Below, in pieces: positions 1 through 47,212 of a DNA stretch of 64,000 bases (its first letter is position 1; every line of letters begins with the position of its first letter). Where the stretch lies: positions 96,001 to 160,000 of the forward strand of contig CAWBEI010000004.1 of assembly GCA_963787835.1 (NCBI GenBank). The letters run 5' to 3'. This DNA is from Ignavibacteriota bacterium. GTDB taxonomy: Bacteria > Bacteroidota > Ignavibacteria > Palsa-1295. The translations under genes were made by a program, and so were the position numbers. The notes beneath the pieces were generated by a model, which saw only the letters and a program-made list of their open reading frames with translations, did no database searches and was not told where the DNA came from.

Positions 1-1721
1 GAACCGGTTGGTTTTGGCTCGCGCACCATGCGCTTCAATGGCTCGATCACTGCTTCGGAAGTGTCGATATTCTGAATATCTGTCGGTAACGATTCATCTA
101 CAGTAGGGACGTGCTGTGCATGTCCGTCCCCTGGTGTTTCGTCCTCTGCCGGTCCTACGGAACCAACCTGTGCCACAGGCTCGGCAACAACGGCAGGTTG
201 CTCCGCTTTCTCCTCATCGGGATCGACCGCCCCATTCGTGAGCCGGCTGAAATGCCGTGAATTAGATCCAAGCTTGTCCTGCCCGTTGCGTGTCAGCCGA
301 GGAATGCCGGTGCCTTCGTGAAGTTTGGCTGGGCGTACCTTTAAAAGGGGTTGATGCTCAATGCGAGGAGCGGGAACTTCATCAGCAGAAGCAACGGCAA
401 CGATTGCTGGTTCGGCGATCGGCGTTGGACCTGTGGCAGGGGGCGGTGCTTCGGCGATGAGTGTTGCTTTGGGTTGTACGGGAGCAATCGGCCGAACGCG
501 ACCCATGTCTGGAACTTGCACGATCGGGGCTACAGCTTCGGCAACTGTCTCAGCTACCGGCGCGGCCATTGGCGTCACTTCTGTTGTATTCGCTATCTCT
601 GCCGCTTTAGATTCTTCTTCGAGCCGTTCTGCTTCTCGCCGTTCTTCCTTCGCGGCCTCGCGGACGGATTGACGTACTTCACGTTTTTCCCAGAATTCAA
701 TGATCTTGCGGCGCGACCATGTCACTAACAATTCCCACCATCCTCGGAGACGGGTGAACGTTTTCTCGATATCGAGATCGATCGAGAAGATGAGCATGAC
801 GATGAACGCTGCCGCATAAATAATGAACGCGCCGGCGCTACCGATAGCGCGGGCGAATGCAAGGCCAAGGAACTGACCTACCGAGCCGGACCATTCGCGC
901 GGAAGATTCAGGAAATTCGATGCGGTTCCCATCGTCGCGCTGAAGAGGATCGCCGTCAGCAGGAAGAACGTTGTGGCAAGCGTAAGCCGCCGGCGTTGCT
1001 TATAGGTGAAGCGAAAGAACGCAAGCGACCATGCGCCGAAAAAGATCGGGTACAGCACCGCTGCATAGCCGATGGTTTTATTGATGAGGAAATTAGCGAG
1101 CATCGCGCCGATAAGCCCAAGCCGGTTTTTCACCAGATCGGCATTTGCGCGGACGGCATCGCGTACGGGGTCGGGCGCGTCGCCGTGGGGAAGGAAAAGC
1201 GAGGGTAGGTCACTGATGCGCGTTTCGGAGCGGGAAGCATCGTCCGGAGAATACGTTACAATGGCGATCAGGATGAGTAATGCCGCAACGATACACGCAA
1301 CTCCAAGCATTTGCCGCTGTTTGACCAGCGAATCCGTTTTTTGCTTGGGAGCTTTTAGCGGAAGCGCCATTTGCTCAACTTCTTCTTCCTGAGGAGCCTG
1401 GGATTTCTTTGTTCTTCGCGCCCGCGGTTTGGGAGGTTCATCCACCGGCTGCGTGATGCGTGCCTGACGTTCTGCGGCGGCGGTCTCGCGCGCTTCTTCC
1501 GATAGACGTTTCGGCATCGGACGTGCACGCGGAGTCAGGGTACCGGCTGCATTGGTTTCGAGCGGCTCATCATCTTCTAAAAATGCGACGGAGGGAGATG
1601 CCTGCCGTATAGCTGACCTATCATCCCTCGCTGAACCGTCTTCCTCGGCAAAGCGCGTGACGGAGCCATTCCGCGAAATGCGGATCGGCGGCGTAGGCTC
1701 TCGATCGAAATCTTCCAGCAC
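1..1721 (-). CDS. ftsK: DNA translocase FtsK, 5' part only (N-terminal extension, 4TM domain, start of Pro/Ala/Glu-rich linker); runs off the left edge of the window
   Basis: Not in the ORF track because it has no stop inside the window. Manual minus-strand translation from GTG 1721 gives MLEDFDREPTPP...QMLGVACIVAALLILIAIVTYSPDD...KNRLGLIGAMLANFLINKTIGYAA...WSGSVGQFLG, matching the FtsK 4TM pattern (N-x-x-G-x-x-G-A), then a low-complexity linker. The motor domain is not in the window and the frame was only spot-checked. Confidence 0.8.
   Translation of the reverse strand, partial: MLEDFDREPTPPIRISRNGSVTRFAEEDGSARDDRSAIRQASPSVAFLEDDEPLETNAAGTLTPRARPMPKRLSEEARETAAAERQARITQPVDEPPKPRARRTKKSQAPQEEEVEQMALPLKAPKQKTDSLVKQRQMLGVACIVAALLILIAIVTYSPDDASRSETRISDLPSLFLPHGDAPDPVRDAVRANADLVKNRLGLIGAMLANFLINKTIGYAAVLYPIFFGAWSLAFFRFTYKQRRRLTLATTFFLLTAILFSATMGTASNFLNLPREWSGSVGQFLGLAFARAIGSAGAFIIYAAAFIVMLIFSIDLDIEKTFTRLRGWWELLVTWSRRKIIEFWEKREVRQSVREAAKEERREAERLEEESKAAEIANTTEVTPMAAPVAETVAEAVAPIVQVPDMGRVRPIAPVQPKATLIAEAPPPATGPTPIAEPAIVAVASADEVPAPRIEHQPLLKVRPAKLHEGTGIPRLTRNGQDKLGSNSRHFSRLTNGAVDPDEEKAEQPAVVAEPVAQVGSVGPAEDETPGDGHAQHVPTVDESLPTDIQNIDTSEAVIEPLKRMVREPKPTG
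103..125 (+). repeat. GTAG-type REP-like palindrome (family A) inside the ftsK linker
   Basis: GTAG followed by GGACGTGC-TGT-GCATGTCC hairpin; encodes GHAQHVPT in FtsK. Related copies at 7801-7816 and 45871-45893. Confidence 0.65.
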
Positions 1722-1726
1722 GAATA

Positions 1727-1807
1727 GAATTACGAATTACGAATTTCAAATTACGAATGAGGGCTCCTTGCCCCAATTCTTCATTCTTATTTCTTAATTC
1801 TAAATTG
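1727..1807. repeat. Inverted array of AT-rich heptamer repeats
   Basis: (GAATTAC)n arm followed by an inverted (AATTCTT)-like arm; same design as 11017-11090 and 11184-11279. Confidence 0.7.
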
Positions 1808-1850
1808 AACTGTGGGTATAAAGGGAGAAAAGTGGGAAATGGTTTCAGGC

Positions 1851-2075
1851 TTATTCGCTTTTATAGCTCTCAGGAACAAGTAGCAAATAGGGCTGGATTT
1901 TTAGGACTTTACAAATCGCAGCCCATCGTTCTAATGTCAATCCGTCTTCGGCTCTTTCGATTCTCGCTAAGTGATTTGCACCGATTCCGGCCTTGCCTGC
2001 AAGTGCCTCCTGGGTAAGACCCATTTTAAGGCGATAGCCTTTGATATTCTTTGCAATAATGTGCTTTAAATTCAC
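1851..2075 (-). CDS. XRE/HTH_3 transcriptional regulator (74 aa)
   Basis: IAKNIKGYRLKMGLTQEALAGKAGIGANHLARIER is a typical XRE helix-turn-helix; divergent from the fibre gene. Confidence 0.9.
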   Translation of the reverse strand: MNLKHIIAKNIKGYRLKMGLTQEALAGKAGIGANHLARIERAEDGLTLERWAAICKVLKIQPYLLLVPESYKSE

Positions 2076-6159: not shown

Positions 6160-7923
6160 ATGAAAAAAATTATTATGTTCGCCATTCTGATGCTCCTGCC
6201 GCTCTGCGGCAGGGCGCAATGGCATTTGCTGCGTGATTTCGATAGTTACCTGCCTGCTGATATCCGGTCGAATGTTCAGCTAACTTCAATTTATTTCCTC
6301 GATCTCCCAGGGCCGCCCCGCATTGGATTCGTAGGCATGGATCACAACAATGTCGATAGTAATCAAGTATGGAAAACTACCGATGGCGGATGGACGTGGT
6401 ATTCGGTGAAAGCGCCGTATCACCCGGATCCTGTTTTTATAGGTTTGAATGCCGATGATTTTGCCTTCAAAGATAGCTCCACTGGCTGGCTCGCTAACTT
6501 TTGGGCGTGGGGAGGATGCGATGTGACGACGGACGCGGGAGAAACATGGACGACAGTTCCTATGCCGAATCCATCGAACCCCTGTTATCTCCTCTATTAT
6601 CATCATGCAACCAACCGCCTTTTTGCGGCCTTAGAAGCTGATAACTGGAGCCTCGTTTCGACTGACGAAGGAACTACCTGGCAAAGCATGAATTTATACT
6701 TTGTTGGGATTTCCTTCTCTGACGATTCAACAGGGATACTTCTGGGCGGGGCTTATTCTCTTGCTCCCCCAACAATTTACTATACAACTAATGGGGGAGT
6801 AACCTGGACACTCTCAAGCAGTTCTGTTCCCCCCGGCTGCGTTCATCCCCTTGCAATCAAAGGAACGAAAACATTCTTTATTGAAGATGTTGGCTGTGCT
6901 GTTTCCCGAAGTGACGACGGCGGACAGACGTGGCGCGAATTATCGATTGTTCCGTCACTCCATATTACTCTTGGAGAGGGAACAGGCGTGCTATTTGGGA
7001 ATTTACAAAACATTTACACCCAAACAGACGCTGGAATTTTTGTTTCGAAGGATTCAGGAATAACGTGGCAGAGTCTGTGCGGTCCCGGTAACAGTTTGGA
7101 CGGAGGCGAATTCACCAAATCTTTTTATGAACGGGATGGGCGCATATATGCTGGGGAATTTAATGATATTACACAAGGAAGGCTTTGGTATTTAAATACC
7201 GACTCTCTCAATATCTTTTCCTCCTCGCTTCACCTTACGCAAAGCACGTCGAGCGTAAGCAGTCTAAGCGTTCTCTTCCATCCACAAATAGATTCCACGG
7301 TTAGAGTCGATACGGCGCATTTTGCTATTCGGTATGATACCTCGCTTCTACTCAAATCGCTTCAGCTCCCAGCGGGTTGGAATATTCTCGATTCGAGTTT
7401 GAGTGGCAATACTATAAACATCACCATTTTTGATACCTTGAGCGAAGTCACTACACCATCTGTCACGTTGAATTTTGAACCGATCATAACGCCAACGAAA
7501 ACCTCCGGCATGATCTGGCTCGATTCAGCCAACCTTTCAGGCAAATGGATGAGCTGTGATATTTTGGCTCAATCCACATCTGCGCCAGATTCCGTTCAAA
7601 TCAATTTTAACGCCTGCGGGGATTCTCTTCTCCTTGCAGCGATGAGTGGCAAGCCGCTGTTCACGATCGAGAGCATTCAGCCGAATCCGGCGCAGGATGA
7701 GATCACGGTTCAGCTATCGGGGAATGTTCAGCCGGTTATCGAGATGTATGATGCGTTGGGCAGGGGGATGGATCCTTCGACAAGCTCAGGACAGGCTCCG
7801 CGCAGCACGTCCCTACGGAGTGGTATTTCGCTCGATGTTTCGGGTGTGCCATCGGGCATCTATTTTGTTCGGGTGTCGGCGGGAGGGTATGTGGAATCGC
7901 GGAGTGTAGTGGTGGAGCATTAA
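6160..7923 (+). CDS. BNR/Asp-box beta-propeller protein with T9SS type A C-terminal domain
   Basis: Signal peptide; repeated T/S-x-D-G-G-x-T-W motifs; [15 protein letters not shown]...YDALGR...PSGIYFVRV. Confidence 0.88.
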
Positions 7924-11009: not shown

Positions 11010-11016
11010 CTTTTGA

Positions 11017-11090
11017 CAATTAAGAATTAAGAATTAAGAATTAAAAGTGACGAATTCAACTTTTAATTCTTAATTCTTAATTCTTAATTG
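11017..11090. repeat. Heptamer inverted-repeat hairpin in tRNA spacer
   Basis: (AATTAAG)x3-AATTAAAAGT ... ACTTTT-(AATTCTT)x3-AATTG; long, near-perfect stem. Confidence 0.85.
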
Positions 11091-11095
11091 TCCTC

Positions 11096-11178
11096 GGGCA
11101 GATACTCAAGTGGCCAACGAGGACAGACTGTAAATCTGTTGACGATAGTCTACGAAGGTTCGAATCCTTCTCTGCCCA
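11096..11178 (+). tRNA. tRNA-Tyr(GTA)
   Basis: Acceptor stem GGGCAGA/TCTGCCC; anticodon arm ACAGA-CTGTAAA-TCTGT; long variable arm; GGTTCGAAT. Confidence 0.97.
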
Positions 11179-11183
11179 CTTAT

Positions 11184-11279
11184 TCAATTAATAATGAAGA
11201 ATTGAGAATTAAGAATTACGGAATCGGGTTTTGGGCCCTGAGTTCAATTCTTAATTCTTAACTATTAATTCTTAATTGA
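11184..11279. repeat. Heptamer inverted-repeat hairpin in tRNA spacer
   Basis: Degenerate AATTAAG repeats followed by inverted AATTCTT repeats, bounded by TCAATTAA/TTAATTGA. Confidence 0.8.
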
Positions 11280-11286
11280 ACCGCCG

Positions 11287-15576: not shown

Positions 15577-16098
15577 ATGAAGGTCATCGTTATTTTTGTC
15601 ACAACGCTCGATGGAAAGATCACGAAGTGGGGCGATCTTCACGTGATGCGATGGTCCTCGCCCGAAGACCAGAAATACTTCCGAGCGATCTGGAACGATA
15701 GTCCGCTCATTATCATGGGAAGCAGCACGTTCGATTTCGATCCGATAAAACCCTCGCGGAAAAGTCTTCTTCATATCATGACGCGGAATCCCGAAAAATA
15801 TAAAATATACGAGGTTCCGGGAGAATTGGAGTTTTCGAGCGAAACGCCTAGGGAATTAGTGAAACGATTTGGATCGCAGTTCGAACAAATGCTCGTCGTT
15901 GGAGGGCCGCACGTTGCGACATCTTTTTTTAAGGATGGTCAGGTTGATGAGTTGTGGCTGACACTCGAACCTAAGATTTTCGGCGAGGGAGGGAATTTTG
16001 CGGTCGGAGCAGATCTTGACGTTGAGCTTTCCCTCATCAGTATGGAAAGAATGAACGACCGCGGGACATTGATTTTGAGATATCAAGTCATAAAATGA
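15577..16098 (+). CDS. Dihydrofolate reductase/RibD C-terminal domain protein
   Basis: TTLDGKI, IIMGSSTF, VVGGPHV, VDELWLTLEPKIFGEG. Confidence 0.9.
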   Translation: MKVIVIFVTTLDGKITKWGDLHVMRWSSPEDQKYFRAIWNDSPLIIMGSSTFDFDPIKPSRKSLLHIMTRNPEKYKIYEVPGELEFSSETPRELVKRFGSQFEQMLVVGGPHVATSFFKDGQVDELWLTLEPKIFGEGGNFAVGADLDVELSLISMERMNDRGTLILRYQVIK

Positions 16099-17225
16099 AA
16101 TTTCAATTCTCGTCATTGCGAGGACAAGCAAGGTGGCGACGAAGCGATCCCTCGTGGATTTGGTTGACCCGTGCAGATTGCTTCGTCGTCCCTTCGGGAC
16201 TCCTCGCAATGACGGTATTATTATTATTTGCTTTTCCGATCTATGCTCAGCATCTGCGCATCTTCGCCTGTGCCATAGCCAACGATAGCACTGGTGCATC
16301 CATGGGTGGAAGCTCCAATGGTTCCGGACTCTACCAATCCGACGATACCGGCAAAACTTGGAAGCATTTGGGATGGGATAATATCAAATGCTACTCGATG
16401 GACATGGTGCAGTCCTCGAATGGCCGCATTCTCTACGAGGCCACCGGCCTCGGCATTCTGCACTCCACCGATTATGGCGAGCACTGGAAGCAGATCACCG
16501 ATTGGCGCATCTCCGAAGCAATGGATGTTGCTGTCAATCAAAAAAATCCGAATGAGATATACATTGCCACAGCGCATGGGCCGTGGAGGAGTGAGGATGG
16601 GGGGAAGACCTGGGAGGCATTACTGGAGGGATTGCCTGTTCCATACACATGCAGAATTGTCATTGATTCAGTAATACCGAATCATGTGCTTGTTGCTTCG
16701 GAAGCAGGTATTTTCGCTTTGTGGAACGATACTTGGATAATAATTCCATGCGAGCAAAAGAATATTCGAAATGAGAAGGAAAAAACTCCAACCGAAATTC
16801 GATTCATCGATCAACTATCTCAGGATATCTGGCTTGCAGCAAGCGAGAACTCTCGGGAGTTGATTTCGTCGGACTCTGCGAAATCATTCGGCACTCCCAG
16901 CTTCGGTGACGAGGGTTTATGGACAATTTCTTCAATTTCACTCGGGCGAGACCATGACGTGACTGCGATGGGAGGAGGTTGGGGACATGCCATTTCTGAT
17001 AGGAACGATGATGAGGTTCGACAGTTCCGGGATGACAAAATAAAAAATGTCAGCAGCATTCTTCAAATTCCTATTCCGTATGATATGGGAAGTAGCTCTC
17101 ATGCCATGGGATTGTATAGTAGCCCGATGTTCGGCACACTTGGGGATGGAATTCCATGGAATGGTAAATCAAAGCTTTTTGACCGTCAAATCTGGACGCT
17201 CAAATCCTTCCTCGTCACGCCATGA
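16095..17225 (+). CDS. Secreted BNR/Asp-box repeat protein; signal peptide interrupted by an in-frame palindromic element
   Basis: SDDTGKTW, STDYGEHW and SEDGGKTW Asp-boxes; ATGA overlap with the downstream gene and 4-nt overlap with the upstream gene. Confidence 0.8.
   Translation: MKFQFSSLRGQARWRRSDPSWIWLTRADCFVVPSGLLAMTVLLLFAFPIYAQHLRIFACAIANDSTGASMGGSSNGSGLYQSDDTGKTWKHLGWDNIKCYSMDMVQSSNGRILYEATGLGILHSTDYGEHWKQITDWRISEAMDVAVNQKNPNEIYIATAHGPWRSEDGGKTWEALLEGLPVPYTCRIVIDSVIPNHVLVASEAGIFALWNDTWIIIPCEQKNIRNEKEKTPTEIRFIDQLSQDIWLAASENSRELISSDSAKSFGTPSFGDEGLWTISSISLGRDHDVTAMGGGWGHAISDRNDDEVRQFRDDKIKNVSSILQIPIPYDMGSSSHAMGLYSSPMFGTLGDGIPWNGKSKLFDRQIWTLKSFLVTP
16111..16214. repeat. CGTCATTGCGAG-family palindromic element, copy 1 (intragenic)
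   Basis: Perfect 14-bp terminal inverted repeat CGTCATTGCGAGGA/TCCTCGCAATGACG with inner GACGAAGCGATC/GATTGCTTCGTC stem. Confidence 0.9.
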
Positions 17226-19042
17226 AAAACGCATCGTGTAGAACCGAACCTTTATGTTCGGTCGGCAAATCCGCCCGACCTAAAGGTCGGGCGCTACACG
17301 TTTTTCTTTTTCTCCTGCTGCCACTGCAACTTCAGGCACAATCCACACAAACAAAAACCCGCGTCCTCGAGCACATTGCATCCATCCCACTCCGGAATGA
17401 TTTTGCAATGGTTGCGGCGAGAATTCATCAGAATATCGGTGTAGAAAGGGCTTACAAACAGCTCGATACGCTTCTCTCACGCGCGTATGGCGATATGTTC
17501 TGGATGTATGGCTGCGCGGGGCTTTATTATGCAACGGCGGATGTGCTGCGTCCGCAATACAAAGCGCGCATTCGAGAGTGCTGGAAGCATTGCACGCCCT
17601 ATCGCGGCGATACGGAGAATCATTTTCTGATGTATTACGGCTCGCTCTTCCTGATGGCGCAGGCGTGGCCCGATCTGCCGGATACAGCATGGTTTATGGG
17701 CAAATCGTCGAAGGAAATCTATGATGAATCGAAAGAATATCTCGATCACTGGATCGACGAGACTGTCCGTAATGGGCAGGAAGAATGGGATTCGCCACGC
17801 TATGGCTATTATTATATCACGCCGCTTGCGCTGCTTGCTGAACACACCAAAGATAAGCGCATGAAGCACCGCTTTTCGATGATGCTCGAATACGAGCTTG
17901 CATCTTACGCCGCCGATTACCTGAATGGGAGCTATTGCGGTGCACACTCCCGCGTCAGCGATGAATGCGCCATTGATCCGCACTCTGCCGAGATCGAAAC
18001 GTATGGTAATTATTTCTTCGGTGAAGATGGCGGCGAGGCGCGATTGGATACGCTCGCCGCAATGCATCCCGACATTGCGTTCGCTGCAATGACAAGTTTC
18101 AAATGCCCCGACATCATCTGTCATATTGCGACCGATCGTTCAGAGAGCTATGAGCAATTCTCGCTAAAGCGAGGACGGCAAATGCTGCGTTACTTAGGTG
18201 AGTGGAGCAGCACAGATTCCAGCCATGATTCCACCTTCCATGCGCCGGTCTATAAATACGATTACATGACGAAGGATTACTGCCTTGGCTCGATGCAAGG
18301 AGGAATTGTGCAGCCGATACAGCAGCAATCCTGGTCGCTTGTCTTTAATTCGGATAAGCACCATAATATTATTACGGGACTCAATCCTTACGTGAGCGCA
18401 GATGAATTGGGAATGTTCTTTCCTGAATATCCCAGCTTTATGCTCGAACGCATCGGCTCGACAAAAGCCAGCTACACAAGCGAGAACAAATGGGAAGGCG
18501 GCTCGCCGTACGAGCATATTTATCAGGATAAGAATGTGCTCGTCGCGTTGTATGATTTGCCGGATAGCGAGAAGTATCACCACATTGACCTTTATATTCC
18601 CGATTGTTTGACTCCCATTGGCCCTAATCCTGACTCAAATAAGCGAACGTGGCATTGCCCTCCCGGATGGAGACTCTATCAATCCGATTCCGTGTTGGTT
18701 GGAATCTATATGTTCAAAGGGTACACCACCGATTCTACATTATTCGGTACCCGATTCACTTCCGACGACAGTAATTCTGGGTACATCATATTATGCGATG
18801 ATCGTAGAGATTTGTCTGTGAATGAATTTGTCAATAGAGTAGGTAATCTCGCAATTGTTAGAACGCCAGAACGAATATATTCAAAAGGTGATGATCTACA
18901 TACAATAAACATAGAATTGAAGGAAGGAAAGCGGGATGCCGATCGGCTCTTCCATTCCCCTTATCTCGAATCGAACAAAGGCAGCGGTATTCTAACCATG
19001 CGCTATAAGGGTGCGTTGCGGGTGCTGGATTTCAGGAATTAG
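17222..19042 (+). CDS. Secreted hypothetical protein, possibly an (alpha/alpha)-toroid lyase/heparinase-like fold; signal peptide interrupted by a REPIN
   Basis: 606-aa ORF with helical N-half carrying TENH, EWDSPRY and GAHSR motifs and a beta-rich C-half. The fold call is an inference. Confidence 0.55.
   Translation: MKNASCRTEPLCSVGKSARPKGRALHVFLFLLLPLQLQAQSTQTKTRVLEHIASIPLRNDFAMVAARIHQNIGVERAYKQLDTLLSRAYGDMFWMYGCAGLYYATADVLRPQYKARIRECWKHCTPYRGDTENHFLMYYGSLFLMAQAWPDLPDTAWFMGKSSKEIYDESKEYLDHWIDETVRNGQEEWDSPRYGYYYITPLALLAEHTKDKRMKHRFSMMLEYELASYAADYLNGSYCGAHSRVSDECAIDPHSAEIETYGNYFFGEDGGEARLDTLAAMHPDIAFAAMTSFKCPDIICHIATDRSESYEQFSLKRGRQMLRYLGEWSSTDSSHDSTFHAPVYKYDYMTKDYCLGSMQGGIVQPIQQQSWSLVFNSDKHHNIITGLNPYVSADELGMFFPEYPSFMLERIGSTKASYTSENKWEGGSPYEHIYQDKNVLVALYDLPDSEKYHHIDLYIPDCLTPIGPNPDSNKRTWHCPPGWRLYQSDSVLVGIYMFKGYTTDSTLFGTRFTSDDSNSGYIILCDDRRDLSVNEFVNRVGNLAIVRTPERIYSKGDDLHTINIELKEGKRDADRLFHSPYLESNKGSGILTMRYKGALRVLDFRN
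17238..17297. repeat. 60-bp GTAG...CTAC REP doublet (REPIN-like), intragenic
   Basis: GTAG-A-ACCGAAC-CTTTAT-GTTCGGT, short spacer, then CGCCCGACC-TAAA-GGTCGGGCG-CTAC. Confidence 0.85.
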
Positions 19043-31805: not shown

Positions 31806-32780
31806 CTACCGCTTCCCTGCGTCTCTTCGATCGGCGCTCCAAAATAATTTCGTTCTCAGGAGATCGAAATAGGATCGTTCCTTTCTGCGAAGCAAATGCA
31901 GCCGATTTGGAGCAGCGCTGATGACCACTTCCGCCGGCGTTGTAACGACGATCTGTTCCTGACCATCGGCCACAACGAGTACCTGATGTGTTTCTTCGGT
32001 CAATGAGCGGAAGCGCATTACGGCATCCTGCGGTACAATAATGGGCCGGACATTCAGCGAATGCGGAGCGATAGCTGTGATAAGCATGACCTGACTTGTC
32101 GGCTCAACAATTGGTCCGCCTGCGCTGACAGCGTAGCCTGTAGAACCGGTTGGAGTAGAAACCATCATGCCATCGGCCCGAATAACACCCACCAAAGCAC
32201 CCGGATGATCGCTCATGCTTCCCACATATACTTCAAGAGTAAGCATACGTGTCGAGCCATAATTATCGATCACGACTTCATTCAACGCATCAAGCGTTAC
32301 CTGTGGGGCCGACATTCCGCTTCTGGATGGTTCCAGATTATCTTGCTTGACAAGCACGGGTTCTCCCGAATCGCTTTTGACGCTTGCATGGAGCATGAGC
32401 CGTTCTTCAACCACCAGCGATCCGCTTGCAAGATCATCAATAAGGGCATCGATCTCTTCCGGTGGGTGCTCGGAAAGAAATCCCAGTTTTCCGGCGTTCA
32501 CGCCGATCAGGCGTGTAGCGGGGTTTGCGCGAGCAATAGCGCGTGCGGCCAGCAGCATCGTCCCATCGCCGCCAATGGATACGATGACGTCGCTTGCTTT
32601 TGCTAACTCGATCAGTGAAGGGGCAACCTTAGAATCTTTAGGCTGTTCCAGTGATGCCATCTTCTCGGTAAGGATGAGCGTTGCATCGGGAAATTTCTTG
32701 GATAGTTTAGCAAGAACATGCGAAAGCGTCTCGCGAACCGAAGCGAGATTTTCGTGTCCAATGATGCCAATGGTATTCAT
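31806..32780 (-). CDS. nadK: NAD+ kinase
   Basis: GGDGT, GKLGFL, ALNE, DGMMVSTPTGSTGY. Confidence 0.95.
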   Translation of the reverse strand: MNTIGIIGHENLASVRETLSHVLAKLSKKFPDATLILTEKMASLEQPKDSKVAPSLIELAKASDVIVSIGGDGTMLLAARAIARANPATRLIGVNAGKLGFLSEHPPEEIDALIDDLASGSLVVEERLMLHASVKSDSGEPVLVKQDNLEPSRSGMSAPQVTLDALNEVVIDNYGSTRMLTLEVYVGSMSDHPGALVGVIRADGMMVSTPTGSTGYAVSAGGPIVEPTSQVMLITAIAPHSLNVRPIIVPQDAVMRFRSLTEETHQVLVVADGQEQIVVTTPAEVVISAAPNRLHLLRRKERSYFDLLRTKLFWSADRRDAGKR

Positions 32781-33709
32781 GCGGGTCGCAAACTTAAGTT
32801 TGCGCTACATTGCCGCTGCGCCGCTGTCATTGTGTTTCTTAGCACCATCGCAATGGTCATTGGTCCGATGCCTCCGGGAACTGGCGTGATCGCGCTGGCT
32901 TTCATTTTTACATGGTCATAATCGACATCGCCGACAAGGCGTGAGCCGGATTTCCGTGTCTTGTCCTCAATGCGATTGATGCCTACATCGACGACGACCG
33001 CACCTTCGCGAACCATATCGGCTGTTATCGCAAGTGGAACTCCCATTGCCGCGATGAGAATATCCGCTTGCCGGGTGATCTCCCCAAGCCGTGCGCCGGC
33101 ACCGGTGTGGGCGATCGTTGCAACAGCATTGGCTTTGGAATTTTTCTGGGCGAGCAATAGTGCAAGCGGCTTGCCTACTAAATTCGAGCGCCCGACGACC
33201 ACCGCGTGCTTGCCAGGAACTTCCACGCCGGTTCGTGCGAGCAATTCGATGACTCCAGATGGGGTGCAAGGCGCGAAGTAATCGCCTTTGCCGATCGAGA
33301 GCCTTCCGGCATTCAGCGGGTTGAACCCATCGACATCTTTTTCTGGCGCGATCAGTTCGATCACACGCTCTTCGCGCATCTGCTTTGGTAATGGGAACTG
33401 CACAAGCAGGCCGTGCGTGGATGGATCCTCATTCGTCTGACGGATAAATTCAAGCAGCACTTCTTCTTCGGCGTTCGAGGGAAGAAGTATCGTCTCATGA
33501 GAAAAACCGGCTTCCTCGGCGGCGATACCCTTGTTGCGCACATAGACTTCGCTTGCGGGATCCTCACCTACGAGGATGAAGACGATGCGCGGACGAATCC
33601 CCTGCGATTCTAAAAATTGCGCGGCCTCGATGCGGACTTCCTCGCGAATTTCAGCAGCAACTTTCTTCCCATCGAGGATTCGGGCTTCAGCCATTGATTG
33701 TTTCTCCAT
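32777..33709 (-). CDS. folD: Bifunctional methylene-THF dehydrogenase/cyclohydrolase
   Basis: YVRNK, KDVDG, PCTP, GRSNLVGKP, TPVPGGIGPMT; alternative start at 33694. Confidence 0.97.
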   Translation of the reverse strand: MEKQSMAEARILDGKKVAAEIREEVRIEAAQFLESQGIRPRIVFILVGEDPASEVYVRNKGIAAEEAGFSHETILLPSNAEEEVLLEFIRQTNEDPSTHGLLVQFPLPKQMREERVIELIAPEKDVDGFNPLNAGRLSIGKGDYFAPCTPSGVIELLARTGVEVPGKHAVVVGRSNLVGKPLALLLAQKNSKANAVATIAHTGAGARLGEITRQADILIAAMGVPLAITADMVREGAVVVDVGINRIEDKTRKSGSRLVGDVDYDHVKMKASAITPVPGGIGPMTIAMVLRNTMTAAQRQCSANLSLRPA

Positions 33710-36064: not shown

Positions 36065-37666
36065 ATGAATAAACTGTATTTCGGTGATAATCTCGATATT
36101 CTCCGCGAGCACATTGCGGATGAATCGGTTGATCTTATCTATCTCGATCCGCCGTTCAATTCCAAGCGCGATTATTCCGTGCTCTTTAAAACCCCGAAGG
36201 GACACGAAAGCGACGCGCAGATCACCGCATTTGAAGATAGCTGGCATTGGGGCGAACAGGCCGAGCGTGAGTTCTCCGAACTCGAGCAAAGCCAGCATAC
36301 CGATGTCGCCGAGATGATGATCGCGCTCCGAAAGTTCCTCGGCACCAACGACATGATGGCCTATCTCACTATGATGGCCAACCGGCTGCTCGAACTACAC
36401 CGCGTGCTAAAACCCACAGGCTCGCTCTATCTCCATTGTGACCCGACTGCAAGCCATTATTTGAAGGTTATTTTGGATGGAGTTTTTGGACATGGAAATT
36501 TTAGAAATGAAATTTCATGGAGGCGGTCAAATCCAAAGAGTCAGAGCTCCGTGAATTTTCCCAACTGTCGCGACATCATTTTAAGATACTCGAAAGGAGA
36601 ACATCCTATATTTCATATGATGTATGGAGAACATGATTTAGGTTATGTTGATAAAGCTTATCGTTACAAGGATGAACGAGGACGCTACAGGCTGCTCCCG
36701 CTCCTGAATCCTAACAAGGATCGACCCAATCTTACCTACGATTTCCTTGGAATCCATAGGGTATGGCGATGGACGCGTGATAGGATGCAAAAGGCTTACG
36801 ATGAGGGTCTTGTAGTGCAACTCAAACCGGGAGCTGTTCCGCAATATAAACTATATCTTGAAGATTCGAAGGGCCGAACAATTTCTAACGACTGGAATGA
36901 CGTAGATCAGGCTGCGGGAAATGAATCATTAGGTTATCCGACGCAAAAACCGCTCGCGCTGCTTGAAAGAATTATCGAAGCATCGTCTGACGAGGGCGAT
37001 GTGGTGCTCGATCCGTTTTGCGGATGCGGGACAGCGGTGCATGCCGCAGAGAAGCTCGGACGGCAGTGGATTGGCATCGACATCACGCACCTCGCCATTT
37101 CGCTCATCGAAAAACGGCTGAAGGATGCGTTCCCGGGAATTAAATTCGAGATCGAGGGCACGCCGAAAGATGTGGATGGCGCGCGCGACCTGGCCGAACG
37201 CGATAAATATCAGTTCCAGTGGTGGGCCTGTTCCTTAGTGAACGCCGCGCCGTATCAGGGCAAGAAAAAAGGTGCCGACTCCGGCATTGACGGACTCATC
37301 TTTTTCCACGACGATAAATCCGGCGCGAAGAAGATCGTGGTATCGGTCAAGGGCGGCGAGAATGTGAACGTAGCGATGGTGCGCGATCTCGGCCACGTGG
37401 TCGATCGCGAAAAAGCCTCGATGGGATTTTTTGTCACACTGGCCGAACCGACGCGACCGATGCGCGAGGAAGCAGTCTCCGCCGGTTTCTACGACGCGCC
37501 CCGCTTCGGCTCCGAATACCCGAAGCTGCAAATCCTCACCATCGAAGGACTCATGAACGGCACCGAACGGCCCCGGTTCCCTGATTTATCTTTGGGGGGG
37601 GCCACGTTCAAAAGGGCGGAAAAGGATGAGCGTGTGACAAAACAGCACCGTTTGTTTAATGAGTGA
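36065..37666 (+). CDS. Beta-class N6A/N4C DNA methyltransferase fused to a C-terminal Mrr-like domain
   Basis: Motif IV DPPF precedes the TRD and motif I (LDPFCGCGT); YPTQKP; C-terminal GADSGIDG...VSVKGG. Confidence 0.92.
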   Translation: MNKLYFGDNLDILREHIADESVDLIYLDPPFNSKRDYSVLFKTPKGHESDAQITAFEDSWHWGEQAEREFSELEQSQHTDVAEMMIALRKFLGTNDMMAYLTMMANRLLELHRVLKPTGSLYLHCDPTASHYLKVILDGVFGHGNFRNEISWRRSNPKSQSSVNFPNCRDIILRYSKGEHPIFHMMYGEHDLGYVDKAYRYKDERGRYRLLPLLNPNKDRPNLTYDFLGIHRVWRWTRDRMQKAYDEGLVVQLKPGAVPQYKLYLEDSKGRTISNDWNDVDQAAGNESLGYPTQKPLALLERIIEASSDEGDVVLDPFCGCGTAVHAAEKLGRQWIGIDITHLAISLIEKRLKDAFPGIKFEIEGTPKDVDGARDLAERDKYQFQWWACSLVNAAPYQGKKKGADSGIDGLIFFHDDKSGAKKIVVSVKGGENVNVAMVRDLGHVVDREKASMGFFVTLAEPTRPMREEAVSAGFYDAPRFGSEYPKLQILTIEGLMNGTERPRFPDLSLGGATFKRAEKDERVTKQHRLFNE

Positions 37667-38678
37667 GGAACAATTCTTTATTGCCGAAGGTGGAAACCTT
37701 CTTCTTAATAGGCTTACAGAAGCTATCGTTTCTGCCCGCCCTACAAGTCTCTCGATTGCGTCCGCATTCGTCACATTCGGAGGTGTTTACGAGCTAGATC
37801 AGCTCGCGCAGAAGGCTTCTATAAGAGATGTTAGGCTAGTGGCAGGAACGGACTTCTGTATCACTCAACCGGAAGCACTAAGAGACTCTATTGATAAGGG
37901 ATGGAACCTACGCATTGCCCAGCCGCGCAATGGAATTTTCCACCCTAAGGTGATTATTGCCTCCAGCGAGAAAGAAGGCACTTTAGAACCGAATGGCATA
38001 CTTTATGTTGGCTCAGCTAACTTAACGGGGCGGGGGCTTCGTGAAAACATAGAAAGTTGCTGGATGGGTAACAGGAATATCGAACAACCAATTATCGAGT
38101 TCAATCGAATTTGGGAAACTTCGCGTGAGTTTTCCGAGGAGTTTTTTGAGGACTATTCAAAACTGTTTGCGAAGGCGAATGCATCTCGTTCAGCTGAAAC
38201 AAGAGATGCGCTTCAAGGTGTATTATCAAGCACAAGCGGTGAAGAAAAAAGGACAGTCATAAGCCATACCTATGCAACAGCCGCTTGGGCCGAATTGAAA
38301 AGTTTTACAGGTGGGTACGTGCTTCAAGTGGAATTTCCTCGGGATGTTGCAGAGGTTGTACGAGGATTCGTACATGGAAGGCTGAGCAATGATGATCGCG
38401 TCCAAATCAACTGTGCAGATGGCGATATTAGGAACCTAATGCTAAAATTTTATGAGGCTAATTCAATGTACCGCCTCAATATTCCTAAAAGCGTTCCTAA
38501 TGTAAAGAGCGCGATAGAAACTCATTCAGGGATTGCACTGCTAACCAATCTCGGTCCACAAGAACCGCTGCAACTGAAGATTGTTACAATGCCCGACGAA
38601 ATGGAAACAATAGTATCTCGTTCGGAAGCTCTTCATTCGATTTATACGACAACCACTAGACGCTATGGATGGTACTAA
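37659..38678 (+). CDS. Phospholipase D-family nuclease (single HxK motif) with uncharacterised C-terminal domain; putative restriction endonuclease
   Basis: IASAF, FHPKV, GSANLT...NIE; 8-nt overlap with the MTase stop. Confidence 0.78.
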   Translation: MSEEQFFIAEGGNLLLNRLTEAIVSARPTSLSIASAFVTFGGVYELDQLAQKASIRDVRLVAGTDFCITQPEALRDSIDKGWNLRIAQPRNGIFHPKVIIASSEKEGTLEPNGILYVGSANLTGRGLRENIESCWMGNRNIEQPIIEFNRIWETSREFSEEFFEDYSKLFAKANASRSAETRDALQGVLSSTSGEEKRTVISHTYATAAWAELKSFTGGYVLQVEFPRDVAEVVRGFVHGRLSNDDRVQINCADGDIRNLMLKFYEANSMYRLNIPKSVPNVKSAIETHSGIALLTNLGPQEPLQLKIVTMPDEMETIVSRSEALHSIYTTTTRRYGWY

Positions 38679-39429: not shown

Positions 39430-39625
39430 TCCTCCCGCTTCCCGTCGCGCGGCTTGTGTCGTCCGCCTCCGTGTCTGAACTGGGATTAATGGGACGGGGA
39501 GGATTTTTGGGATGATCGTGCGTAATCCCAACCATCCAAATCATCCTCCTCTATGGGCAATTATGAATTATGAAGTATGAAGTATGAAAGGGGCCCATTT
39601 ATTTTTATTTATTTTCGAGAATCGC

Positions 39626-41306: not shown

Positions 41307-43583
41307 CTACTTGAAGGAGAACAGCATCGCCGGTCGGGGTAAATTTTCAGCTTCCATCTCCGGACCATGCAAGACGACCCTTGCATCAAGCGCAATGCAG
41401 CCTTCCGGCGAGGCAATAAGTGGATTAATATCGATCTCGGAGATCCACGGCTCATTGATAACTAACTGGCTGAATTTTACGAGCAGCGATTCAAGTCCGG
41501 CAACATCGATCGGCAACTTGCCGCGAGTTCCCTTTAGTGCCTGCCAGATATGGAGTTGCTCCATCATCTTGCGCGCCAGCGTATTATTGAGGGGCGGAAG
41601 TTCCAGCACGGTGTCCTTCATGACTTCGGCAAGGATGCCACCGGCTCCGAGCAGAAGAATAGGGCCAAATTGGGGATCGATGCTGCAGCCTAAGATGAGC
41701 TCGTATCCTTCCCGTTTTATCATCGGCTGGATGGAGACGCCATCGAAATCGCTTTCGTGACCTTTCGTGATCACGGAATCATGGATCTCCTTGAAGGCGC
41801 GGCTTACTTCATCCTCATTATGGATATTCAGCTTAACTCCGCCCACATCCGATTTATGGGTGATGGTCTTAGAAAGCAATTTTACAACGACGGGGAACCC
41901 GATGCGCCTCGCGGCATCGATGGCATCTCCGACTGTTGTAACAGCAACGGTTTCTGTAACGGGTATGCCATATTCGGTGAAGAGCTGCTTGGATTCGACT
42001 TCAGTCAGGATCGTTCGGCCTTCGGCTCGAACCTGGTCGATAATAGTGGAATGTTTTTGCAGCGGGTGCACAAAGTGGATGGAAGGTTCATCGGATTCCA
42101 AGGTGTTTAACCGTTCGCCGAATTTCCACATATAATTGAACACATTCGCTGCATCGTCCGGGAACTTGAAGGTGGGGATCCCGCCACGGCTCATGATGCC
42201 ATCGGCAGCGGAGACGTCCTCGCCTCCCATGAAGGATGCAATGAGCGGCTTGCCGAGTTTTGCATACTTCGCAATATTGGTTGCCATGGTTTGTGGCCGG
42301 GCCGCCACGAGCGGCGCGGTGATAGCAAGTACGCCGTCGGTGCCTTCGTCATTTAGTGCCAGTTCCACGGCACGTTCGAAGGTTGCTTCGGTGGCATCGG
42401 CAAGGATATCAACGGGGTTCCCATGGCTCCAGTGTGGCGGAAGAATTTCATTGAGGGCGCCCATGGTGTCCGGTGAAAGCTGCGCAAGTTGGCCGCCGCC
42501 CTCCATGAGGGCATCGGCCGCCAACACGCCCGGGCCACCGGCGTTCGTTACAATGGCAAGGCGTCGCCCTTTGGGGCGAGGTTGCTTGGCAAGGACGTCA
42601 GCAATATGGAAAAGTTCACCAATGCGATCGAGCCTCAGAACGCCGGCACGCCGAAACGCGGCATCGAGGACGGCATCGCTTCCGGTCAGAGCGCCGGTAT
42701 GCGAAGCAGCAGCTTTGGCGGCAGCTTCGGTGCGTCCGGCTTTAATTACGATGATCGGCTTACGAAGAGCGACCTCACGAGCGGCCGCAAGAAAGCGTGG
42801 AGCATTCCCGATGGACTCCATATAGATCACAATGGATTCCGTATTCGGATCGCTTCCAAGATAATCTATGAGATCACCCCATCCCACATCGAGCATCGAT
42901 CCGACGGAAACGAAGGCACTGAATCCCAAAGCCTCATTCAAGCTCCAGTCGAGGATCGCGGTGCAGAGCGCTCCGCTCTGGCTGATGAATGCCACATTCC
43001 CTGGCAAGGCTGCTTTTCGAGCGAACGTCGCATTCAGGCGATCGATGGGGTTCATCACTCCGATACAGTTCGGTCCTATGATGCGGAGTTGCGTGCCACG
43101 GATCCGGTCAGATATTTCTTTCTCAAGCGCCTTTCCTGCGGCTCCTGTTTCCCGAAATCCGGCAGAAATAATGATCGCACCTCGAACGCCTCTCTCTACG
43201 CATTCACTAATGATCGCTGGAACTGTGGCAGCAGGAGTTACGATCGCAGCCAGATCAACTTGCTTGGGAATATCGGCAAGCGAAGCGTATGCAGTATGCC
43301 CGGCAACCGTCTTACGGGTGGGATTGACGGCGAATATCTCCAAACCTGGGCGGACGTGTGAAAAGAGATTCGAGGTCAGAGCTTCCCCCGGGCTTCCCGG
43401 ACGTTCCGTAGCACCAATGATCGCGATGCTTTTGGGGTGGAAGAAGACGTTCAGAGGATGTTGAGTGGAGGGCGATGGAGTATGAGAAGCATCGCCGGCG
43501 ATACTTCTCGAGCTTTCCAATCCATCTATCAGGTTCTTACCCATCGTTCGAGGCGCGGGGTCTAAGATTTCTGTTGTAGGCAT
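41307..43583 (-). CDS. Acyl-CoA synthetase (ADP-forming), fused alpha/beta; Pat-like but without GNAT domain
   Basis: IGPNCIG, SQSGAL, catalytic His in [18 protein letters not shown]-grasp [14 protein letters not shown]; ends [11 protein letters not shown]. Confidence 0.9.
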
Positions 43584-44215: not shown

Positions 44216-47212
44216 ATGCGAACTCTCGGAATTGTTTTGGTAGCAATGGTCTGCGTTTCGCAAGCCTGTGCCCAATCAAGTTCACATTGGAGAAAAATGG
44301 GACAGTTTCCACCTGACTATCCAATAGCGTGTGGTTATTTTTGGAATACCCAGCATGGAATTGTCGGGGGAATTGACGGAATCTTTTATACAACAAATGG
44401 AGGAACAACTTGGCAGACAAGCGCGGTGCCAAGTTTTTCCGCTTATATCACATCCATTTATATGAAAGATACACTCGCTGGATGGGCTTCGTTAGCAACG
44501 CTCCAGCCTGGAACAACAGTTTTGTGGCAAACAATGGATGGTGGCGTTACATGGAAAAACGTACCTGGTTATGTGTCAGGAGGGAAGCAGCCGGACGGAA
44601 ATGGAGATTCCGACGATCCCTCAGGTATTACTGATATTTCGATTGCACCCACAACCGGTGCTTTAATCCTTACCTCATGGGGTTTGCATTTTACTTTTCC
44701 GCCAGAGGATGCAACTTCCATTACATGGGATAGCACTGGATTGGGTGTAATTGGCGGCTTCGGAGATTGTTACGTTTCGTCCAATAGGGGAAAGACATGG
44801 AAAATGACAGGCAACGATCCTGGATGGGCATTCGGAATTTTTCCTTCTTCAAATTGGCATACATTTTTTGAAGTCTCATACGTGCTTCCATGGGGAACGA
44901 TTTATACATCGAAAGATCAGGGAGCGACATGGGACTCGGTTTATGCCACGGGGCAGCTAATGACTGGCGATGCCGAAGGCGCCCCGGGGGTTTGTTATGT
45001 TCAGAGTAGCAGCAACGGTATCTATCGAACTACCGATACTGGTAACACATGGGTAAATATTGGTGGCCCATCCAATGTGGAAATCACACGTTTTTGCGTG
45101 CTGGGTTGTAACGGGGCAACTGTGATCGCATTCGATGACACAGGTGGCGTTTGGCTAACACAGGATGGCGGCGATGGAACGCTTTCCAAAGCTATTCAAA
45201 CTCTCTTGATCGATACGTTCCCATCCGTTTCACAATGCTCACAGAGTAGGATGGGCGTAAAACTCAACATCTCAAATTCCTGCCAGAACTCGTTCTCGCT
45301 TACGGGTTATCATTTAGAGGACGATACTACTCATTTTTCGCTTGATTCATTGCTCCCATTTCCTAAATCTTATGGCGGCGGAGACTACACTGACTCTTTT
45401 TACGTTTCTTTCAACCCACAAACACAGCCCGGCACATTTACGACGAAGTTACACGTAACCGGGACGGTATTCTTGTCGGATAGTTCTTTTTCGTATGACA
45501 CGGTAATTTTGATAACTGCAACTTCGACTCCAAGCCGGCCCAATATCATTGCATCTGATTCTTTGCTCGCTTTTGGCGCGATCTCCACTTGCAATGGAAC
45601 GGCGCTTGCATCTGTCACTTTCAAGAACGGCGGTTGTGCCCCGGATACGATCACAAACTTTACACTTTCCGGTACGGGTTTCACAGGCCCGAATGATACA
45701 CTACCCATAATTGTGCTAGCAGGTGATTCGGTGAAACTTGAGTATCGTTTCGTTCCGCCGGATTCGGGTGTGTTTACCGGTCAGGCACAGTTGAATGTGG
45801 TTTCGATGGGCCTGACGGAAAATCCGGTGATTGACTTGTCCGGTCAGGGTGTGCAGGGCCTTGGGGTGCTGGACGTGCGCAGCATGGGACTACAAGCGGG
45901 AAGTTTCTCTTTCTGCACGGGCGATACGACGCTTACAGACACCATCTCGAACACCGGCTGCGACACGCTGGTGATCTCGAATATCCGATTTGCGGGTGGG
46001 TCGGCGTTCTCGCTTCTTTCAGTAAGCGGGGATTCTCTATTGCTTCCGGGTGCAAGCCGCGTGTTTCAGTTTCATTTTGTGCCGAGAACGAAAGGTGCGC
46101 AGTCCGCCACACTGACGTTTCATTCCCAGAATATCGTGAACGATGCCGGGCACGATACAACCATCACGCTTGCGGGTATCGGACTCGGTGGCACAAAGAT
46201 ACTTACAGCCGATACATCGCTCCGGGATTTTGGTGGGTTGTATGCGTGCCAGTCGCGGGATACAACGATTGTGCTTTCCAATCCGGGGTGCGATACGCTT
46301 CGGATCGATAGTGGTACTGTGAACAATGGTACGTATTCGACGAACGCGATTTATCCGATCATACTTCCACCTGATTCCTCTGTGTCAGTTACAATTCATT
46401 TAACCGCCGATAGCGCGGGCATGAATGGAACGCTCACATTCTTCAGCGATGCCAACAAGGGTGATAGCGTGGTAACGATTCCGCTCACGGCAAGCATCAT
46501 TCCGCCAGCGCATTTGGTTCTCGCACTTTCGCCATCGGACACCGCAACGGATGGTACACTTGTGAAATGCTACGTACTGCTCGAAGGTCAGGTGCCTCCC
46601 GGTGCGATCTCCGGGATGCAGTTCGATATTACGCATAATGACGATCTGCTAAGTTTTTTGAATGCAAGCGGGGTAACGATGACTGGAACTGCTGGAACTC
46701 CGGAGGCGCAGGTGCTGCATTTTGCTGCGGGGAGTCAGGCTGGAAGCCCGACCTACGCGGATACTATTGGGACAATCACGTTCCGGGTGTATCTGAGCGA
46801 TTCCATCTTTACGCCGCTTTCATTATCGAACGTGACGTTTACGAATTCACTTTCCTTATCGGATGATTGCGTAGCGAGCATTCTCGATTCGGGAGCGTCG
46901 TTCACCTATCTCTATCGTTGCGGCGAACCGATCATACAGGATGCGATGGAGAACGTGACGCCATTCTCGATCGAATCAATTGTTCCCAATCCGGCAGGAG
47001 ATGAGATCACCATTGAGTTATCGGGGAGTGCTCAGCCGGTTATCGAGATGTATGATGCGTTGGGCAGGAGTGTGCTGACCACCCCCCAGCCCCCTCCTTC
47101 TATAGGAGTGGGAGTAGTGCTCGATGTGTCTGAGGTGCCATCGGGAATCTATTATCTCAGGTTTTCGTCCGAAGGGTGTGTTCAGACAAGGAGGATTTCG
47201 GTTGCGCGGTAA
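44216..47212 (+). CDS. T9SS cargo: BNR propeller, several ASH/choice-of-anchor-D-like Ig domains, cohesin-like domain and CTD
   Basis: Signal peptide from ATG 44216; TTNGGTTW-type boxes; repeated NxGC(D)T motifs; IVPNPAGDEITI...YDALGR...PSGIYYLR. Confidence 0.85.
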   Translation: MRTLGIVLVAMVCVSQACAQSSSHWRKMGQFPPDYPIACGYFWNTQHGIVGGIDGIFYTTNGGTTWQTSAVPSFSAYITSIYMKDTLAGWASLATLQPGTTVLWQTMDGGVTWKNVPGYVSGGKQPDGNGDSDDPSGITDISIAPTTGALILTSWGLHFTFPPEDATSITWDSTGLGVIGGFGDCYVSSNRGKTWKMTGNDPGWAFGIFPSSNWHTFFEVSYVLPWGTIYTSKDQGATWDSVYATGQLMTGDAEGAPGVCYVQSSSNGIYRTTDTGNTWVNIGGPSNVEITRFCVLGCNGATVIAFDDTGGVWLTQDGGDGTLSKAIQTLLIDTFPSVSQCSQSRMGVKLNISNSCQNSFSLTGYHLEDDTTHFSLDSLLPFPKSYGGGDYTDSFYVSFNPQTQPGTFTTKLHVTGTVFLSDSSFSYDTVILITATSTPSRPNIIASDSLLAFGAISTCNGTALASVTFKNGGCAPDTITNFTLSGTGFTGPNDTLPIIVLAGDSVKLEYRFVPPDSGVFTGQAQLNVVSMGLTENPVIDLSGQGVQGLGVLDVRSMGLQAGSFSFCTGDTTLTDTISNTGCDTLVISNIRFAGGSAFSLLSVSGDSLLLPGASRVFQFHFVPRTKGAQSATLTFHSQNIVNDAGHDTTITLAGIGLGGTKILTADTSLRDFGGLYACQSRDTTIVLSNPGCDTLRIDSGTVNNGTYSTNAIYPIILPPDSSVSVTIHLTADSAGMNGTLTFFSDANKGDSVVTIPLTASIIPPAHLVLALSPSDTATDGTLVKCYVLLEGQVPPGAISGMQFDITHNDDLLSFLNASGVTMTGTAGTPEAQVLHFAAGSQAGSPTYADTIGTITFRVYLSDSIFTPLSLSNVTFTNSLSLSDDCVASILDSGASFTYLYRCGEPIIQDAMENVTPFSIESIVPNPAGDEITIELSGSAQPVIEMYDALGRSVLTTPQPPPSIGVGVVLDVSEVPSGIYYLRFSSEGCVQTRRISVAR
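46734..46756 (-). repeat. Single GTAG-type REP inside a T9SS cargo gene
   Basis: Minus strand reads GTAG-GTCGGGC-TTCCA-GCCTGAC; encodes SQAGSPTY. Confidence 0.7.

What the first reader, a model, noticed from the sequence alone, without database searches (positions are those of the whole stretch)
103..46756. GTAG-type REPs recur inside coding sequence, including housekeeping genes
Seen: family A (approximate consensus GTAGGGACGTGCTGCGCACGTCC) lies in the ftsK linker (103-125), in a T9SS CTD (7801-7816, partial) and degenerate at 45871-45893. All three read ...CTAC on the sense strand, and no intergenic copy was spotted. A second family lies at 46734-46756. A weaker GTGG-type remnant (TGTGGGGCCGACATTCC, 32302-32318) encodes GMSAPQ in an apparent extra loop of NadK. 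Inference: this lineage tolerates REP-derived peptides in loops and linkers, a route to new protein sequence. No RAYT/Y1 transposase is present in the window.
Basis: partly seen in the sequence, partly recalled or inferred. Interest (0 to 1): 0.7.

Follow-up and report, generated by a model that had tools for sequence, protein, structure and literature searches.

The report
Hairpin repeats overwriting bacterial protein segments
In a genus of uncultured Kapabacteria-like bacteria, small hairpin-forming DNA repeats, likely spread by their own transposases, sit in frame inside many genes, and different repeat families occupy the same few protein positions in different species, which extends a known way for selfish DNA to likely become protein sequence.

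Summary
The repeats are real. Family A is a GTAG-type REP: 39 copies in this genome, 14 in ORFs (9 well inside), 19 intergenic, 6 at gene edges. It was found in 12 of 14 congeners and 0 of 26 other genomes. Its RAYT transposase gene, flanked by these REPs, is present in relatives; none was found here. Against a sister species, 45 of 203 internal in-frame indels overlap repeat words (control 0.7%). Intragenic REPs in housekeeping genes are known (Opitutus terrae, Rickettsia), and this scan noted them on other DNA, including pheS of this genome. Less ordinary points: the same sites (T9SS tail, CoaBC, MetH, a capsid) hold different repeat families in different species; at 45871 the REP peptide aligns without a gap to an Ig-domain strand; and shared coding repeats show few synonymous changes (12 of 87 codons; 26-44 expected). 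Most likely the sites are repeatedly overwritten and filtered for frame. Translation is untested. Verdict: new variant of a known kind, moderate interest.

The parts
1..1721 (-). ftsK, 5' part (gene continues off the window; 1141 aa in the genome)
   Evidence: Pfam FtsK_4TM; gene call G000:C4:94296-97721
103..125 (+). Family A GTAG REP, 2 mismatches, hairpin kept; read antisense in the variable FtsK linker (GHAQHVPT)
   Evidence: G014 has GRAQHVPT, G006 a decayed form, G002/G005/G009 unrelated sequence
6160..7923 (+). BNR-repeat protein with T9SS C-terminal sorting domain
7774..7800 (+). Second repeat (family R) nested inside the family A copy; adds 8 residues
   Evidence: 8-residue gap against the G006 orthologue
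7794..7816 (-). Family A REP in the T9SS tail, interrupted by the nested repeat
   Evidence: intact form QDVRSTSL in paralogues of five genomes
16108..16217 (+). TGTC/CGTC-type repeat pair at the 5' end of ORF 16095-17225; coding only if the upstream ATG is used
   Evidence: my gene caller chose a start downstream of most of it
31806..32780 (-). nadK (NAD kinase)
32202..32219 (-).
   Evidence: present in 2 of 30 nadK loci (G000, G002); an ~89%-alike contig of run X5 lacks 4+14 nt here; 6-residue gap against PDB NAD kinases
32302..32318 (+).
32787..32808 (-). Family D GTAG REP forming the last codons of the gene upstream of nadK (folD-like by inspection)
44297..47212 (+). Secreted BNR / ASH-type Ig-repeat protein with T9SS tail, holding three repeat-derived segments
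45871..45893 (-). Decayed family A REP (LDVRSMGLQ) at the first strand of an Ig domain; length-neutral
   Evidence: gap-free against 84 homologues; residues 525-527 and 531-538 strand, 528-530 coil, pLDDT ~80
46734..46756 (-). Family B-like GTAG REP (SQAGSPTY) in a flexible loop
   Evidence: pLDDT <50 at residues 816-821
47079..47116 (+). DUF559-flanking-type repeat (family L, TTPQPPPS) at the T9SS-tail site that family A holds in paralogues
   Evidence: the same family flanks a DUF559 gene on both sides
48898..48936 (+). Second family L copy at the same tail site of the next gene (47226-49031)

Best explanation
These are non-autonomous hairpin repeats of several families, likely spread by RAYT transposases and small nucleases, that sit in frame inside genes and likely survive only where frame and fold tolerate them, with the same tolerant sites likely overwritten again and again. 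Steps. (1, shown) Family A is a genus-restricted GTAG REP whose RAYT gene is flanked by it in relatives; none was found in this genome, so the family is probably orphaned here. (2, shown) Families C, D and F flank Y1 genes here, E and B2 in relatives, L flanks a DUF559 gene, and TGTC-type repeats flank GIY-YIG-like ORFs (named by inspection). (3, shown) Repeats come and go quickly between sister species, in spacers and in genes. (4, inferred) Frameshifting or disruptive hits are purged, leaving 4-68% of each family inside ORFs, below the 88% coding density. (5, inferred) An existing hairpin or tolerant loop is a preferred or permitted target, so new repeats nest in or replace old ones; this gives family swaps and young-looking DNA at old sites. 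(6, inferred) Some peptides become part of the fold, as at the Ig strand and the T9SS tail, and are then kept as protein after the DNA family dies out.
For: RAYT flanked by family A: L124 (NCBIfam REP_Tyr_transpos E 3e-17 but 62.7 bits, below the cut-off of 80), L380 in G014 (60% identical) and a remnant in G009 (L381). Census with reversed-pattern controls of 0 for family A. 45 of 203 indels versus 0.7%. Syntenic spacers: of 97 with a repeat (443 examined), 68 have it in one genome only, 17 the same family, 12 different families. Coding hot spots with different families in different species: CoaBC linker, MetH, HK97 capsid, T9SS tail and loop site. Nested repeats: R in A, N in E. Synonymous differences 12 of 87 codons versus 43.7 expected, or 26.2 for one branch (P 3e-4); T9SS tail 27 of 290 codon pairs versus 388 of 915 in flanks. 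A two-base, stem-preserving swap between two family E variants at the same site in two genes, one side non-synonymous. G011, with 0 family A copies, keeps LDVHSTSLE with mostly third-position changes.
Against: No experiment shows that RAYT inserts or overwrites these sites. The mobiliser of the 16-18-nt palindromes is unidentified. No RNA or peptide data were available. The synonymous test rests on 18 sites in one genome pair, about three of them probably spurious matches (kept in the count), and none of family A. Flanks are also somewhat more conserved than expected (266 of 698 versus 332), which would lower the one-branch expectation to about 21 (hand estimate). The tail copies are paralogues and not independent. 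The gene-level scan is weak: 142 of 2173 genes versus 72-78 in codon shuffles. ftsK is not a clean insertion; it lies in a linker that barely aligns. 158 of 203 indels showed no library match.
Confidence: 0.65

Rival explanations
1. Each coding repeat inserted once, long ago, and its DNA is kept near-perfect by selection on the hairpin as a DNA or mRNA element (pausing, stability, protein binding), not by re-insertion.
For: Low synonymous change. The ftsK copy's two changes keep the stem. An identical family E copy sits in coaBC of four species. PMC2817692 argues for selection on palindromicity in REPs flanking RAYT genes (passages).
Against: The same sites hold unrelated families, or nothing, in sister species. 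Spacers show the same swapping. Copies decay where the family is absent (G010, G011), and the 45871 copy no longer folds.
Confidence: 0.15
2. Stems are kept symmetrical by template-switch correction of imperfect palindromes during replication (mechanism recalled from general knowledge, not read here), with no role for transposases after the first insertion.
For: It would explain paired two-base changes and low stem divergence.
Against: Unpaired positions are conserved too: the tag and loop codons of family E, and the family L leader with 0 of 15 synonymous differences. The swapped variant exists as a family variant elsewhere, including beside RAYT genes. It does not explain family swaps.
Confidence: 0.1
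3. At 45871 and in the T9SS tail the peptide is native protein sequence that resembled the REP by chance, and was converted to, or merely looks like, the repeat; paralogue duplication and conversion inflate the counts.
For: Native Ig strands have a similar pattern, and some homologues read ..TTSLNAGSF without the rest of the REP peptide. T9SS cargo genes are many and recently duplicated.
Against: Perfect 23-of-23 matches in several genomes. Even decayed copies use the REP's serine codon classes. Reversed-pattern control 0 at 4 mismatches. It does not apply to single-copy genes such as nadK, coaBC and metH.
Confidence: 0.1

Closest known systems
Intragenic GTAG/CGTC REPs (Di Nocera et al. 2013, PMC3733652; read: abstract, passages, section 15, part 1 of 3 of supplement 3)
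   Same: GTAG-tagged 20-25-nt hairpins, singles and dimers, inside housekeeping genes, several families per genome, with RAYT genes flanked by cognate REPs. Opitutus terrae has 70 listed intragenic entries; its ASPIC/UnbV paralogues list different families at similar positions.
   Different: A different lineage (record titles: Ca. Kapaibacterium / Ignavibacteriota MAGs). DUF559-type repeats and short untagged palindromes also enter genes here. In the parts read, the paper does not analyse family swaps at orthologous coding sites, length-neutral strand replacement, or synonymous rates.
Rickettsia palindromic elements (Ogata 2000, 2002; seen only through passages of the review PMC10969869 and PMC3733652; the 2002 paper was not held)
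   Same: Palindromic repeats inserted in frame in unrelated metabolic genes, apparently compatible with the fold.
   Different: RPEs are ~100-150 bp with a conserved peptide. Here the units are 16-25 nt (dimers ~60-90 nt), read in several frames, and cognate RAYTs are identifiable for several families.
REPIN-RAYT / REPtron systems (PMC2817692, PMC3686654, PMC8266576; passages read)
   Same: HUH tyrosine transposase gene bracketed by inverted GTAG REPs; uneven copy numbers among relatives; families outliving their RAYT; novel REP variants may partly replace older ones (PMC3686654).
   Different: Described REPs are mostly extragenic; here about a quarter to a third of families A, D and E lie inside ORFs.

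Membership tests
GTAG-type REP (family A) | GTAG tag followed by a short stem-loop, 20-40 nt | tested here: met
   23 nt, 8-bp stem, z about -4
GTAG-type REP (family A) | Multicopy, dispersed, lineage-restricted | tested here: met
   39 copies at <=4 mismatches; 12 of 14 congeners, 0 of 26 other genomes; one Akkermansia record also matched
GTAG-type REP (family A) | Inverted dimers (REPINs) | tested here: met
   20 of 39 copies have a partner within 120 nt
GTAG-type REP (family A) | Cognate RAYT gene flanked by the same REP | tested here: met
   L124 and L380; below the NCBIfam cut-off; not found in G000
GTAG-type REP (family A) | Predominantly extragenic | tested here: inconclusive
   19 intergenic, 6 edge, 14 in ORFs, 9 of them deep
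GTAG-type REP (family A) | Bound and cleaved by the RAYT as single-stranded DNA | not testable with these tools
   needs biochemistry
RPE-like coding palindromes | In-frame insertion absent from orthologues | tested here: met
   nadK 18 nt; 45 of 203 indels; unclear for ftsK and not met at 45871, which is length-neutral
RPE-like coding palindromes | ~100-150 bp unit with one conserved peptide | tested here: not met
   16-25-nt units read in several frames
RPE-like coding palindromes | Insert lies in a surface loop or linker | tested here: inconclusive
   met for 46734 and 47079 in the predicted model; 45871 overlaps predicted strands
RPE-like coding palindromes | Decorated protein is expressed | not testable with these tools
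   needs RNA or proteome data
GTGG-type REP (NadK 32302-32318) | Hairpin, multicopy, absent from orthologues | tested here: not met
   a direct genome count of this 17-mer was not made

The most novel reading that the evidence does not exclude
In this genus, RAYT-driven hairpin repeats do not only add loops: they overwrite equal-length stretches of folded domains (an Ig strand, the T9SS export tail) and keep refreshing those codons while the family is active, so one protein position cycles through peptides from unrelated selfish repeats and the peptide is retained as protein after the repeat family dies.
Probability: 0.3. Interest if true: 0.7.

Novelty: new variant of a known kind. Interest (0 to 1): 0.45.

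Why it matters
Repeat-derived peptides in bacterial proteins are known but have mostly been listed, not followed through time. This genus offers 15 related genomes, identifiable transposases for several families, and single-copy genes whose same site holds different repeats. That makes two open questions testable: how REPs choose and re-use targets, and whether selfish-DNA peptides become structural. It also warns annotators and phylogeneticists that short shared peptides and low synonymous rates in these genes come from repeats.

Tried and rejected
NadK GTGG remnant: rejected. Looking for family A's RAYT with Pfam PF01797: none of 50 loci from 8 genomes was bracketed by family A (L097 had one distant 4-mismatch-level copy), and a tblastx of those Y1 regions against L101-L203 found nothing; the gene was found only by reading ORFs between REP copies, so PF01797 misses it. 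First synonymous test (7 of 54 versus 168 of 367) rejected as circular, because 'shared' was defined on DNA; redone with a peptide criterion. Single-sequence structure prediction was poor (pLDDT 42) and was replaced by an alignment-based one (79.7). The fold search gave only generic ASH/Ig-repeat matches. No RNA holder listed. Contigs of runs X1-X3 were too short to test strain polymorphism at the repeat sites. G006 was compared over 2.08 of about 3.8 Mb only. A genus-wide ftsK alignment and loci for one search were not obtained. Direct genome counts of the 46734 variant and the NadK 17-mer, and a frame-by-frame stop table, were not made. Literature searches listed no paper on repeats in Kapabacteria or on family swaps at coding sites; subscription papers, Ogata 2002, and parts 2-3 of supplement 3 of PMC3733652 were not seen and may bear on novelty.

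Full report
Setting. The window is G000:C4:96001-160000 of a 3.57-Mb, 97.9% complete genome. Records that carry family A are titled Ca. Kapaibacterium, Ignavibacteriota or Bacteroidetes MAGs, with one Akkermansia exception among the 80 rows shown, and a homologue is named as from Ca. Kapabacteria. Genes were called with my own dicodon caller (3064 genes, 88% coding), so start positions are approximate.

Observation. Four of the five listed sites are real repeats and lie antisense to their genes. The copy at 103-125 keeps its hairpin. The 'partial' copy in the T9SS tail is partial because a second repeat was nested in it, adding 8 residues against the G006 orthologue. The 45871 copy has 4 mismatches and no longer folds, but perfect copies occupy the homologous site in three loci. 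The NadK site is wrong: the loop holding GMSAPQ is present in all 24 family loci and of equal length in the 15 genus loci, and the 17-mer does not fold. A true insertion lies at 32202-32219: 18 nt of a short palindrome family, in 2 of 30 loci, absent from an ~89%-alike contig of run X5 and a 6-residue gap against solved NAD kinases.

Census. Family A has 39 copies: 19 intergenic, 6 at gene edges, 14 in ORFs, of which 9 are at least 30 codons from the start; the reversed-pattern control gave 0. Other families inside ORFs: D 15 of 43, E 12 of 34, L 19 of 28, C 4 of 69, TGTC-type 4-14%. All 7 single in-gene family A copies are antisense, but dimers include sense copies and families D and E show no such bias; the tag carries a stop codon in one sense frame, which may contribute (inference). 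A looser gene-level scan found 142 of 2173 genes with an internal repeat segment against 72-78 in codon shuffles, so about 3% of genes in excess. Family A was found in 12 of 14 congeners (0 to 72 copies) and 0 of 26 other genomes.

Mobilisers. The genome has 10 PF01797 matches; three are bracketed by families C, D and F. Families E and B2 bracket Y1 genes in relatives. Family L brackets one of two DUF559 genes, and TGTC-type repeats bracket short ORFs that look like GIY-YIG nucleases by inspection. The family A RAYT was missed by Pfam but found between REP copies in L124 (NCBIfam REP_Tyr_transpos 62.7 bits, cut-off 80), with a 60%-identical, likewise bracketed gene in G014 and a remnant in G009. 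In G000 the best hit is 32% over 88 residues, so family A is probably orphaned here; its in-gene copies carry more mismatches (mean 1.21) than those outside (0.52).

Comparison with a sister species. Over 2.08 of about 3.8 Mb of G006, 907 orthologue pairs (median 83% identity) contain 203 internal indels of 5-60 residues; 45 overlap words from an intergenic repeat library, against 0.7% of 10,143 control segments; 158 do not. Most species-specific inserts are family L and the 16-18-nt palindromes, not GTAG REPs. Decorated genes include ribE, nusB, xerC, tsaD, queA, ksgA, hemW, pheS, coaBC and metH (names from the G006 orthologues).

Re-used sites. Across the genus, the CoaBC linker, a MetH linker and a capsid loop each hold different repeat families, or none, in different species. 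The T9SS tail site holds family A, family L, another GTAG variant or heptamer repeats, and the window gene 44297-47212 alone has three repeat-derived segments. Spacers behave alike: of 443 syntenic spacers, 97 carry a repeat; 68 in one genome only, 17 the same family, 12 different families. Swapping is therefore a general property of these repeats, and coding sites are the subset that passes the frame filter (inference).

Young DNA at old sites. At 18 shared coding sites chosen on peptide identity, 12 of 87 same-residue codons differ, against 43.7 expected from codon-specific rates, or 26.2 for one branch (P 3e-4); flanks show 266 of 698 against 332 expected. About three of the 18 are probably spurious and were kept, and none is family A. 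For family A, all 10 T9SS tails picked by flanks and a 14-residue length carry the peptide, with 27 of 290 codon pairs differing against 388 of 915 in flanks; these are paralogues and not independent. Two genes show a paired two-base swap between family E variants. Unpaired positions are conserved too (family L 0 of 15), which argues against stem repair alone.

Replacement rather than addition. At 45871 the peptide aligns without a gap to the first strand of an ASH-type Ig domain in 84 homologues. In the alignment-based model (mean pLDDT 79.7) residues 525-527 and 531-538 are strands with pLDDT near 80, while the 46734 and 47079 segments are low-confidence loops. G011, with no family A copy at 2 mismatches, keeps LDVHSTSLE with mostly third-position changes, as expected if the peptide is now kept as protein. 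The alternative, a native strand that resembled the REP, is not excluded, since some homologues read TTSLNAGSF.

What is known. PMC3733652 reports GTAG and CGTC REPs inside genes of many species, most in Opitutus terrae (70 entries in the part of supplement 3 read), and suggests linkers or loops as neutral sites. Its table already lists different families at similar positions of ASPIC/UnbV paralogues. Rickettsia elements are the classic case (review passages). PMC3686654 notes that new REP variants may partly replace older ones and that proliferation stops on RAYT loss. Eight searches listed no paper on this lineage's repeats or on swaps at orthologous coding sites, within the library's limits. 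This scan has 341 earlier notes matching the words searched and one on pheS of this genome.

Verdict. The basic phenomenon is known. The serial re-use of sites by unrelated repeat classes, the length-neutral strand replacement and the low synonymous divergence make it a new variant, with interest 0.45. Mobilisation, overwriting and translation are inferred, not shown.

Noticed in passing
G000:C2:835836-837113 and L366-L379; portal gene nearby (L260:13077-14393): An HK97-type major capsid gene gives one match per genome in 14 of 15 genus genomes at 70-89% identity, with a portal gene close by; this suggests a domesticated, gene-transfer-agent-like cluster.
   Followed up: no
window 32202-32219; L012: The nadK insertion is shared by G000 and G002 but absent from G006 and G014, although G006 is closer to G000: independent hits, precise loss or local recombination.
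   Followed up: partly
genome-wide, e.g. window 43487-43502, 50277-50299, 55647-55667: Untagged 16-18-nt palindromes (families M, N, O; 58, 90 and 13 copies at loose thresholds) make clean 6-codon inserts and nest inside other repeats; no mobiliser was identified.
   Followed up: partly
window 17222-17300: The N-terminal ~25 residues of ORF 17222-19042 are shared with G006, G009 and G014 but replaced by a longer, repeat-like segment in G002; possibly a repeat-derived signal-peptide n-region.
   Followed up: no
window 1725-1809, 11013-11281, 39555-39593, 49260-49316: AT-rich heptamer tandem repeats upstream of ftsK and around tRNA-like genes; similar heptamers occur inside genes of relatives.
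   Followed up: no
L346-L349 (metH of G007, G008, G011): Three genus members carry an extra ~150-residue segment in the MetH linker where others carry repeats.
   Followed up: no
G000:C2:1365633-1366789; G006 ftsK (L044): coaBC of G000 and ftsK of G006 appear split between frames, probably assembly indels; a caveat for gene-level counts.
   Followed up: no
window 36065-38678: A DNA methyltransferase-like ORF followed by a phospholipase-D-type nuclease-like ORF, by inspection of the translations; likely a restriction-modification pair.
   Followed up: no
L124:944-1483: The family A RAYT group is missed by Pfam PF01797 and scores below the NCBIfam cut-off, so searches with these models undercount RAYTs in this lineage.
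   Followed up: yes
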